Shown one piece after another: positions 8,625-9,659 of a stretch of DNA of 64,000 nt; the stretch's first letter is position 1; each line of letters opens with the position of its first letter. The stretch lies in assembly GCF_009914755.1 (NCBI RefSeq), contig NC_060935.1. One strand, given 5' to 3'. Under the pieces are notes generated by a model. It saw only the letters and a list, made by a program, of their open reading frames with translations, searched no databases and had not been told where the DNA came from. The position numbers and the translations under genes were made by a program. This stretch comes from the human T2T-CHM13v2.0 reference genome, Homo sapiens.

Positions 8625-9118
8625 GGCCAGGTGCAGTGGCTCATGCCTGTAATCCCAGCACTTTGAGAGGGCGAGGCAGGCGGATCACCTGAGGTTGGGA
8701 GTTCGAGACCAGCCTGACCAACATAATCTATGTGAAATGACCTAGATAAAAGAGAAAAGTATGATATACATTAATATCTTTTCTGTGTGTGACTTGATCA
8801 AAAGTTTTATGGATCAGAGTAAGAGATATGGCCGGGCGCAGTGGCTCACGCCTGTAATCCCAGCACTTTGGGAAGCTAAGGCGGGTGGATCACGAGGTCA
8901 GGAGATCGAGACCATCCTGGCTAACACGGTGAAACCCCATTTCTACTAAAAATACAAAATTCGCTGGGTGTGGTGGTACATGCCTGTAGTCCCAGCTACT
9001 TGGGAGGCTGAGGCAGGAGAATCGCTTGAACCTGGGAGGTAGAGGTTGCAGTGAGCTGAGATCGCGCCATTGCACTACAGCCTAGGCAATAAGAGCAAAA
9101 CTCTGTCTCAAGAAAAAA
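8625..9118 (+). mobile_element. AluSp/Sq-like element carrying an internal ~203-bp templated insertion (chimeric Alu)
   Basis: 5' part ggatcacctgaggttgggagttcgagaccagcctgaccaacat and 3' part ggcaataagagcaaaactc are Sp/Sq-type. Intact TSD aaaatacaatgtg at 8612-8624 and 9119-9131. Interior 8723-8940 is identical to 3857-4074. Confidence 0.92.
8723..8940 (+). repeat. 218-bp exact dispersed direct repeat of 3857-4074
   Basis: Base-by-base identity at offset 4866. The ORF track also gives near-identical 62-aa translations at 3895 and 8761 that differ only near the end (PHLY vs PHFY). Confidence 0.97.
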
Positions 9119-9659
9119 AAAATACAATGTGATAGGCATTATAATTACAAATATAATTATTATGCTAAGCAATGAATTGTACTTACCATTACAGTGGTAA
9201 TACAAATAATGAAAAAAATTATTTGCTGATTAAACAAATAGATAAATCATTGCTTTTGGGGTTACTGTTATGGATATAAAATATTAAAATACCATAGAAA
9301 GAAGGATATTCTGATTAATATAGGACTCCATTTACTAAAATATCAAATGAGTATTTTTTCCCGACCATTTTTGCTAAAGTGATTTTAAGAAAATGAATGG
9401 ATTTTGGAGTATAAAAAACTTGATTTGAATTCCAGCACTGACACTTAGATGTTAGGTGACTTTTAGACAAATTTTATCACCCCTTAGAGCCTGTGTCATC
9501 ATTTGTAAAATTAAGAGAGTTGTTGTAAGCAATAAATAAGGTAATGCATATAAAGTGGCAAGTTCATAGAAGGTCTTTTATCAATATTAAATATCTTCTC
9601 ATTTTCAGTGTGGAAAAATTTAATGTCATGTACCTGCCTTCAGAGATAGTATTTAATAT

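What the first reader, a model, noticed from the sequence alone, without database searches (positions are those of the whole stretch)
8625..9131. Recent Alu-guided templated insertion: 218 bp copied from 4.87 kb upstream into the middle of another Alu
Seen: 8723-8940 is 100% identical to 3857-4074, including all CpGs. The copied block is 107 bp of non-Alu flank, which includes the donor AluY's left TSD, plus the first ~111 bp of that AluY. It sits inside an older AluSp/Sq-like element whose 13-bp TSDs (8612-8624, 9119-9131) are both intact, and the host Alu resumes in register (ggtgaaacccc) with no net loss; net gain is ~203 bp. The left junction has a 7-of-8 near-microhomology (recipient accaacat vs donor accaagat). 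The right junction lies in Alu-Alu homology. There is no poly(A) or new TSD. Established: retrotransposition and 3' transduction would leave a tail and TSD, and simple Alu-Alu NAHR would delete or duplicate the whole 4.9-kb interval. Inference: a break in the downstream Alu invaded the upstream AluY, synthesis ran out of the Alu into the flank, and the end rejoined by microhomology (one-sided SDSA or template switch). Perfect identity suggests a very recent, possibly polymorphic or lineage-specific event.
Basis: partly seen in the sequence, partly recalled or inferred. Interest (0 to 1): 0.8.

Follow-up and report, generated by a model that had tools for sequence, protein, structure and literature searches.

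The report
Alu-anchored 203-bp templated insertion
A 218-base stretch (unique DNA plus the head of an Alu repeat) was copied from 4.9 kb upstream into the middle of another Alu in a DLG2 intron, a clean but ordinary scar of error-prone DNA break or replication repair.

Summary
Window 3857-4074 and 8723-8940 are 218/218 identical. The 107-nt non-Alu part occurs only at these two places in the whole T2T-CHM13 assembly. The copy interrupts an older Alu whose 13-nt target-site duplications are intact. The left junction is a 7-of-8 imperfect microhomology. The right junction is a 13-nt (24/25) Alu-Alu overlap, in register, with no host base lost and a net gain of 203 nt. There is no poly(A) and no new target-site duplication. 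The upstream copy is the donor.

The best reading is a single templated insertion (a small dispersed duplication) made by two template switches. It could be one-sided strand invasion followed by microhomology end joining, or FoSTeS/MMBIR. The sequence cannot tell these apart. A two-step path (tandem duplication, then Alu-Alu deletion) gives the same product but is less parsimonious.

The donor Alu is not young (6.2% diverged). The copy carries all six of its private changes, so the event falls within the last ~16% of the donor's lifetime, under ~8 Myr by recalled rates. No other assembly was available, so polymorphism, lineage and a cell-line origin are untested.

Among 100 of 616 similar two-headed Alu composites, none was an exact analogue. 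This is a new member of a known kind, of modest interest.

The parts
3857..4074 (+). Donor block: 107 nt of unique flank plus the first 111 nt of the upstream Alu
   Evidence: 218/218 identical to 8723-8940. The flank part occurs only twice in the assembly.
3851..3858 (+). Donor side of the left-junction microhomeology (ACCAAGAT)
   Evidence: It matches host ACCAACAT at 7 of 8. It is the only such 8-mer in 3464-3963.
3950..3960 (+). Left target-site duplication of the donor Alu (AGAGTAAGAGA), followed by 3 extra nt (TAT) before the Alu starts at 3964
   Evidence: The right copy is at 4309-4319.
3964..4308 (+). Donor Alu: the body runs to ~4248, then a long A/GA-rich tail
   Evidence: 6.2% substitutions against the majority of 22 Y-type Alus. 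13 of 18 changes are CpG-decay type, and 12 CpG remain of ~25.
4309..4319 (+). Right target-site duplication of the donor Alu
8612..8624 (+). Left target-site duplication of the host Alu (AAAATACAATGTG)
   Evidence: Exact match to 9119-9131
8625..8724 (+). Host Alu, positions ~1-100, ending in ...GACCAACAT
   Evidence: 11% substitutions against the majority of 61 S-type Alus. 79% identical to the donor Alu head.
8717..8724 (+). Left junction: host ACCAACAT. The last 2 nt (AT) are shared with the donor and the host C at 8722 is retained.
8725..8927 (+). Net inserted DNA (203 nt): donor flank, including the donor's left target-site duplication at 8816-8826, then the donor Alu head up to ...CTAACAC
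8928..8940 (+). Right junction: a 13-nt overlap (GGTGAAACCCCAT) common to donor and host, in Alu register. It is 24/25 identical over 8928-8952.
8941..9118 (+). Remainder of the host Alu (linker, right arm, short A tail)
   Evidence: 12.9% substitutions against the S-type majority. 79% identical to the donor's matching part.
9119..9131 (+). Right target-site duplication of the host Alu

Best explanation
This is a single repair event that produced a templated insertion, that is, a small intrachromosomal dispersed duplication.

A break or stalled fork arose inside the older downstream Alu, at or just 3' of ...ACCAACAT (about Alu position 100). It was repaired by copying 203-218 nt from a template 4,866 bp upstream. 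Two template switches were involved:
- One switch lay in Alu-Alu homeology: a 13-nt perfect overlap, 24/25 nt locally, between two Alus that are only ~79% alike overall.
- The other lay in a 7-of-8 microhomeology (ACCAACAT / ACCAAGAT) in the unique flank, 113 nt upstream of the donor Alu.

Two polarities give the same product:
- (a) The right-hand break end invades the upstream Alu. Synthesis runs leftward through the Alu head into its flank. The displaced strand is then joined to the left end at the microhomology (one-sided invasion, or SDSA plus MMEJ).
- (b) A nascent strand ending in ...ACCAACAT switches back to the upstream flank, copies ~210 nt rightward into the Alu, and returns to the host Alu through the Alu overlap (FoSTeS/MMBIR).

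Shown by the sequence: the anatomy, the direction of copying, the absence of retrotransposition marks, and the relative youth of the event. Inferred: the break, the enzymes and the polarity.

The insert lies deep in a DLG2 intron, antisense to the gene, and is most likely neutral.
For: - 218/218 identity, with the boundaries given above. The flank is present only twice in the genome.
- The donor Alu is complete with its own target-site duplications. The host Alu's target-site duplications are intact and no host base is lost.
- The right junction is in Alu register with a 13-nt overlap, 24/25.
- The left junction is on a 7-of-8 match. The per-position frequency of such a match in the window is 0.0006 (40 of 63,993 8-mers), and it is the only hit in the 500 nt upstream of the donor Alu.
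- There is no poly(A) and no new target-site duplication.
- The host Alu is 11-13% diverged and the donor Alu 6.2% diverged. All 6 private substitutions in donor Alu positions 1-111 are in the copy.
- Literature, passages read:
  - Alu/Alu rearrangements between diverged Alus are attributed to template switching/MMBIR or MMEJ, with junction overlaps mostly under 25 bp (PMC6071635).
  - Imperfect matches of at least 5 bp and at least 70% identity ('microhomeology') are a reported signature of template switching (PMC6902434).
  - The FoSTeS/MMBIR model has short templated synthesis followed by a return to the original template (PMC4888836).
  - Alu-Alu exchange acts mainly within ~10 kb (PMC8230782).
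Against: - No empty allele, no reads and no other assembly were examined, so the event itself is inferred from a single haplotype.
- The polarity and the pathway cannot be resolved.
- The certain left overlap is only 2 nt.
- A two-step path gives the identical product.
- In a sample of 100 of 616 two-headed Alu composites, no second case of 'neighbouring Alu head plus its flank' was found. Recurrence as a class is therefore not shown.
- No PRDM9-type 13-mer lies in 3000-10000, and no close inverted Alu partner exists (the nearest is ~20 kb away). Nothing in the sequence explains why a break occurred here.
Confidence: 0.85

Rival explanations
1. A two-step origin. First, a microhomology-mediated tandem duplication of 3857-8724 (4,868 bp), joined at ACCAA(G/C)AT. 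Second, an Alu-Alu recombination-mediated deletion within the second copy, between the duplicated upstream Alu and the host Alu remainder. This removes ~4.66 kb and leaves flank, Alu head and host Alu tail.
For: On paper it reproduces every junction seen. Both steps are known kinds of event: Alu/Alu-mediated deletions (PMC6071635), and an Alu-mediated tandem duplication that I saw myself at L080.
Against: It needs two rare events at one locus within the short time allowed by 218/218 identity. The window shows no trace of the intermediate: only one 4.87-kb interval is present.
Confidence: 0.05
2. End-joining capture of a free ~205-218-nt DNA fragment from the upstream region into a double-strand break in the host Alu, with no homology guidance.
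For: Only 2 nt of certain overlap on the left. Capture of DNA fragments at breaks is a known outcome (general knowledge, recalled).
Against: The right end would have to fall by chance exactly in Alu register with no base gained or lost. The left end would have to fall by chance on the only 7-of-8 match in 500 nt.
Confidence: 0.03
3. An RNA-mediated origin. Either reverse-transcriptase template switching during the host Alu's own retrotransposition, or later insertion of a cDNA of a read-through transcript covering the flank and the Alu head.
For: Composite Alu structures inside a single target-site duplication do exist (L003, L102 and L085).
Against: The insert is 100% identical to the donor, including 7 CpG, while the host Alu around it is 11-13% diverged with only 7 CpG left. 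So it is far younger than the host's insertion. There is no poly(A) and no new target-site duplication. The block ends inside the Alu at position 111, in register with the host.
Confidence: 0.01
4. It is not a germline feature. It is either an assembly artefact, or a change that arose in culture in the CHM13 cell line.
For: Only one assembly was examined. Perfect identity is also what an artefact or a very late somatic event would give.
Against: The junctions carry the marks of biological repair: register and microhomeology. A 218-nt repeat 4.9 kb apart is far shorter than the long reads used for this assembly (recalled, not checked here). A cell-line origin would still be the same mechanism.
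Confidence: 0.03

Closest known systems
Alu/Alu-mediated rearrangement (AAMR) by template switching / MMBIR or MMEJ (Song et al. 2018, PMC6071635; passages read)
   Same: One junction lies in a short identical stretch (13 nt) between two diverged, directly oriented Alus of different subfamilies a few kb apart. It creates an in-register chimeric Alu.
   Different: AAMR as described deletes or duplicates the whole interval between the two Alus. Here only 203 nt were gained, because the second junction lies in unique flank at a microhomeology.
FoSTeS/MMBIR templated insertions with microhomeology (Bahrambeigi et al. 2019, PMC6902434; review PMC4888836)
   Same: Short templated synthesis from a nearby template, a return to the original template, and a 7-of-8 (87.5%) imperfect match at a join-point.
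   Different: Those cases are mostly parts of large pathogenic copy-number gains. This is an isolated, small, apparently neutral intronic event, with an Alu providing the return switch.
One-sided invasion / coupled homologous and non-homologous break repair (Belmaaza & Chartrand 1994, seen only as a reference entry in PMC4888836; Richardson & Jasin 2000, recalled and not seen)
   Same: One break end uses homology to prime synthesis that runs past the end of the homology. The other end is joined without homology.
   Different: That model was defined in reporter assays with near-identical repeats. Here the homology is a ~79% Alu pair with a 24/25-nt local match.
Partial Alu-Alu gene conversion between neighbours (PMC8230782, passages read)
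   Same: Sequence passes one way from one Alu to another within ~10 kb and gives a hybrid element.
   Different: Conversion replaces homologous sequence without changing the length. Here the host's own positions 1-100 are kept, and 107 nt of non-Alu flank are added.
Dispersed duplication (dDUP) class in structural-variant catalogues (class name recalled; the term appears only in search listings)
   Same: A copy of a segment is inserted at a non-adjacent site on the same chromosome, and the donor is retained.
   Different: That is a descriptive class with no implied mechanism. This case adds nucleotide-level junctions.

Membership tests
Templated insertion / dispersed duplication by template switching (SDSA+MMEJ or FoSTeS/MMBIR) | The inserted DNA has an identifiable template elsewhere, and that template is retained intact | tested here: met
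   218/218 identity to 3857-4074. The donor is still in place with both of its Alu target-site duplications. There are only two copies in the genome.
Templated insertion / dispersed duplication by template switching (SDSA+MMEJ or FoSTeS/MMBIR) | Microhomology or microhomeology at the join-points | tested here: met
   Left junction: 2 nt exact within 7 of 8, P about 0.0006 per position. Right junction: 13 nt exact within 24/25.
Templated insertion / dispersed duplication by template switching (SDSA+MMEJ or FoSTeS/MMBIR) | An empty (pre-insertion) allele exists or existed | not testable with these tools
   Only one human assembly is held, and 'It has no relatives here'. The empty state is inferred from the host Alu's intact target-site duplications and its 291-nt length without the insert.
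Alu/Alu-mediated rearrangement (AAMR) | An in-register chimeric Alu at a junction between two directly oriented Alus | tested here: met
   8830-9118 is donor head (1-111) joined to host tail, with a 13-nt overlap.
Alu/Alu-mediated rearrangement (AAMR) | Deletion or duplication of the whole inter-Alu interval | tested here: not met
   The 4.87-kb interval is present once. Only 203 nt were gained.
L1-driven retrotransposition (with or without transduction) | A 3' poly(A) on the insert and a new target-site duplication flanking it | tested here: not met
   The insert ends inside the Alu at position 111. There is no A-tail, and no direct repeat flanks 8725-8927.
Alu-Alu gene conversion | Replacement of a homologous tract with no change in length | tested here: not met
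   Host positions 1-100 are retained (8625-8724). The net gain is 203 nt, including 107 nt of non-Alu sequence.
NAHR tandem duplication | Head-to-tail repeat of the whole unit between the recombining repeats | tested here: not met
   That is not the structure here. For contrast, locus L080 shows exactly this for a FLAM/Alu pair.

The most novel reading that the evidence does not exclude
The event could be one visible instance of a recurrent DNA-level route by which Alu homeology primes repair synthesis that runs out of the Alu and carries its 5' flank to a new site. This would be a kind of DNA-based 'flank transduction' between neighbouring Alus. It might be human-specific or still polymorphic at this DLG2 intron. 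My sample neither shows nor excludes this. There were 0 exact analogues in 100 of 616 composites, but the screen required two intact 16-mers, 170-260 nt spacing and an exact target-site duplication. It also found one related templated insertion inside an Alu (L085).
Probability: 0.1. Interest if true: 0.5.

Novelty: new member of a known kind. Interest (0 to 1): 0.3.

Why it matters
This is an unusually legible repair scar. The donor, the recipient, both junctions and the pre-event state can all be read from one haplotype, because the host Alu's target-site duplications frame the event.

It shows how two Alus that are only ~79% alike and 4.9 kb apart can seed a small duplication rather than the usual deletion or duplication of the whole interval. 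It also shows that a 7-of-8 microhomeology can fix the other junction.

If the site is polymorphic it would be a convenient natural marker, and a test case for callers of small dispersed duplications inside repeats. No functional effect on DLG2 is indicated.

Tried and rejected
- **Other genomes.** No other human or primate assembly is held, so lineage and polymorphism were not testable.
- **Screen for the same class.**
The shortened pattern gave 616 matches, with 0 in the reversed control.
  - I examined the first 100 listed (chr1-chr3, coordinate order, not random): 30, and 60. The window locus passed the same pipeline as a positive control.
  - Ten of 100 had an exact outer match of at least 10 nt. 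Four were low-complexity (L054, L078, L104, L110).
  - The other six were:
    - L003: Alu 1-200, 8 nt, then a full Alu.
    - L005: three copies of one target-site duplication.
    - L102: two Alus inside one target-site duplication.
    - L080: a tandem duplication between a FLAM-like left monomer and a full Alu, most simply unequal recombination, with a 213-nt unit.
    - L009: the spacer is a high-copy repeat with 345 candidates. I recall it as resembling an L1 3' end. No donor was found.
    - L085: Alu 1-78, then a 156-nt copy at 97% of unique DNA 213 kb upstream, then a full Alu. That source has no adjacent Alu.
  - None of the 100 is a copy of a neighbouring Alu's head plus its flank.
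  - Donors were sought only for L009 and L085.
- **Break-prone features.** There is no PRDM9-type 13-mer in 3000-10000, and no nearby inverted Alu partner.
- **Literature.** Six searches turned up the general mechanisms. They did not surface a description of exactly this architecture. That is not evidence that none exists.
- **Subfamily naming.** No repeat library was available. 'Y-type' and 'S-type' rest on a left-arm motif split of 169 Alus from fetched loci, and Sc/Sp elements may fall in the 'Y-type' group (recalled).

Full report
**1. Observation**

Reading both sites and extending the match base by base shows that window 3857-4074 is identical to 8723-8940 over 218 nt. The repeat finder gives the same pair as a 236-nt family at 99%, spaced 4,866 nt. 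It is the only repeat at or above 99% in the 64-kb window.

The block is 107 nt of non-Alu DNA (3857-3963, no CpG) followed by Alu positions 1-111 (3964-4074, 7 CpG). A search of the whole 3.1-Gb assembly with the 107-nt part finds exactly two places, both at 100%. The flank is therefore unique DNA, not a repeat family, and chance is excluded.

**2. Anatomy**

The upstream Alu is complete. It has a body, a long A/GA-rich tail, and an 11-nt target-site duplication AGAGTAAGAGA at 3950-3960 and 4309-4319. Three extra nucleotides lie before the Alu head.

The downstream block sits inside another Alu, whose 13-nt target-site duplication AAAATACAATGTG is exact at 8612-8624 and 9119-9131. That host Alu is 494 nt with the block and 291 nt without the net insert 8725-8927.

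At the left junction the host ends ...ACCAACAT and the donor reads ACCAAGAT before the copied part. Two nucleotides (AT) are certainly shared, five more match beyond a single mismatch, and the host's C is kept.

At the right junction the last donor-specific base is 8927 and the first host-specific base is 8941. Between them lie 13 nt (GGTGAAACCCCAT) common to both, in Alu register. Over 25 nt the two Alus match 24/25. No host base is missing. The insert has no A-tail and no flanking direct repeat. It carries the donor's left target-site duplication (8816-8826) but not its right one.

**3. Direction and relative age**

The donor site is a normal Alu insertion in continuous unique DNA, while the recipient copy is a fragment interrupting another element. 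Copying therefore went from 3857-4074 to 8723-8940.

I compared them with the column majorities of 22 'Y-type' and 61 'S-type' copies, split by a left-arm motif. That gave:
- **Donor Alu:** 6.2% substitutions, 13 of 18 of CpG-decay type, with 12 CpG left of ~25.
- **Host Alu pieces:** 11.0% and 12.9% substitutions.

So the donor is not a young AluY. The copied part of the donor carries 6 private substitutions, and all of them are in the copy. The copy therefore postdates most of the donor's history and is far younger than the host.

Using the donor's own decay as a clock, about 18.8 differences between the two copies are expected per donor lifetime. None is seen, so the event lies in the last ~16% of that lifetime (95% bound; median 4%). 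With mutation rates that I recall rather than measured, the bound is ~8.4 Myr and the median ~1.9 Myr. Later gene conversion between the two copies could make the event look younger. Alu-Alu exchange is reported to act mainly within ~10 kb (PMC8230782, passages).

**4. Are the junctions more than chance?**

Matches of at least 7 of 8 to the host's terminal 8-mer occur at 40 of 63,993 window positions (0.0006). In the 500 nt upstream of the donor Alu there is exactly one, and it is the junction. The right junction is in exact Alu register. A fragment captured at random would rarely show both features.

**5. Mechanism**

The two Alus are only ~79% identical in either half. That is poor substrate for classical homologous recombination but typical of Alu/Alu events attributed to template switching, MMBIR or MMEJ. 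In those events junction overlaps are mostly under 25 bp (PMC6071635, passages). Imperfect matches of at least 5 bp and at least 70% identity are a described signature of template switching (PMC6902434, passages).

I therefore read the event as one repair episode with two switches. Either:
- the right break end invaded the upstream Alu, synthesis ran through the Alu head into the flank, and the displaced strand was joined to the left end at the microhomeology (one-sided invasion, SDSA plus MMEJ); or
- a nascent strand ending in ...ACCAACAT switched back 4.9 kb, copied ~210 nt, and returned through the Alu overlap (FoSTeS/MMBIR as summarised in PMC4888836).

Retention of the host's C at the mismatch follows directly from the second polarity and is a coin toss in the first. 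This is weak evidence, and I do not choose between them.

Related observations in print:
- Templated duplications with distant intrachromosomal insertion after heterologous invasion (PMC5783719, passages).
- Template switching at meiotic breaks (PMC7615360, passages).

**6. Rivals**

- **Two-step path.** A microhomology tandem duplication of 3857-8724, followed by an Alu-Alu deletion in the second copy, gives the identical product. It needs two rare events in a short time and leaves no trace here.
- **Free fragment capture.** It does not explain the register or the microhomeology.
- **RNA-based routes.** They fail on age (the insert is identical to the donor while the host is 11-13% diverged), on the missing A-tail and target-site duplication, and on the in-register end.
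- **Assembly artefact.** This is unlikely given the biological junctions, but it was not checked against reads.
- **CHM13-private or culture-acquired origin.** This cannot be excluded. It would be the same mechanism.

**7. Is it a recurrent class?**

I searched the assembly for two left-arm core 16-mers spaced 170-260 nt apart. There were 616 matches, and none for the reversed control. I examined the first 100 listed with a pipeline that flags the window locus correctly.

Most were ordinary arrangements:
- a free left monomer or an internally deleted Alu followed by an independent Alu with its own target-site duplication;
- nested Alu insertions.

Six had a convincing outer target-site duplication:
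- L003, L005 and L102 are Alu-Alu tandems of other kinds.
- L080 is a tandem duplication between a FLAM-like left monomer and a full Alu, most simply unequal recombination, with a 213-nt unit.
- L009 has a spacer from a high-copy repeat and no identifiable donor.
- L085 is an Alu broken at position 78. It holds a 156-nt copy (97%) of unique DNA from 213 kb upstream, followed by a second Alu head. Its source has no Alu beside it. It is a templated insertion, but not an Alu-guided one.

So 0 of 100 are exact analogues and 1 of 100 is a related templated insertion.

The screen is narrow. It needs intact cores, a set spacing and an exact target-site duplication of at least 10 nt. The sample was taken in coordinate order from chr1-chr3. 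Donors were sought for only two loci. The remaining 516 matches could not be fetched.

**8. Comparison and verdict**

The event works like an Alu/Alu-mediated template switch combined with a microhomeology join. It belongs descriptively to small dispersed duplications, or templated insertions.
- It is not a standard AAMR, because the interval is neither deleted nor duplicated.
- It is not gene conversion, because the length changed.
- It is not retrotransposition.

Six literature searches did not surface this exact architecture, but every component is established. I rate it a new member of a known kind, of modest interest (0.3). Its value is as a clean example and a possible polymorphic marker.

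It lies deep in a DLG2 intron. By the hub's annotation there are no exons in the window and the gene is on the minus strand. No functional consequence is indicated.

Noticed in passing
window 299-1474 and 16046-17208: Six to seven colinear direct-repeat blocks, 81-89% identical, all spaced ~15,747 nt apart. The second copy abuts the annotated HNRNPCP6 pseudogene (17365-18427). They are probably two copies of one interspersed repeat, or an old local duplication.
   Followed up: no
window 3100-3392 and 63710-64000: Direct repeats of 84 and 112 nt at 90% identity, spaced 60.6 kb apart. They are probably members of one repeat family.
   Followed up: no
window 4249-4308: The donor Alu has a ~60-nt purine-only A/GA-rich tail. 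Tracts like this can form unusual DNA structures. No link to the event was tested.
   Followed up: no
L080 (G000:C1:226602485-226603613), locus 213-940: A free left Alu monomer, a 76-nt flank and a young Alu, with the 213-nt unit duplicated in tandem. The middle element is a chimera of the young Alu's head and the monomer's tail. The most likely cause is unequal Alu/monomer recombination.
   Followed up: partly
L085 (G000:C1:246413894-246415040), locus 427-960; source L111 163-318: An Alu broken at position 78 holds a 156-nt copy (152/156) of unique DNA from 213 kb upstream, followed by a second Alu head and the rest of the Alu. The whole lies inside one ~14-nt target-site duplication. The source has no adjacent Alu. 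It looks like a multi-switch templated insertion.
   Followed up: partly
L046 (G000:C2:241570907-241580752): Just upstream of a full Alu there is a small tandem duplication of a 23-nt flank plus the first 31 nt of the Alu head.
   Followed up: no
L003 (G000:C1:5915180-5918398) and L102 (G000:C2:70065344-70066514): Two Alu bodies in tandem enclosed by a single 13-15-nt target-site duplication. L003 is Alu 1-200, 8 nt, then a full Alu. L102 is two near-full Alus.
   Followed up: no
L009 (G000:C1:14435351-14438549): A left Alu monomer, a 54-nt piece of a high-copy repeat (345 candidates genome-wide, best other match 91%) and a full Alu, all enclosed by one 13-nt target-site duplication. The origin is unresolved.
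   Followed up: partly
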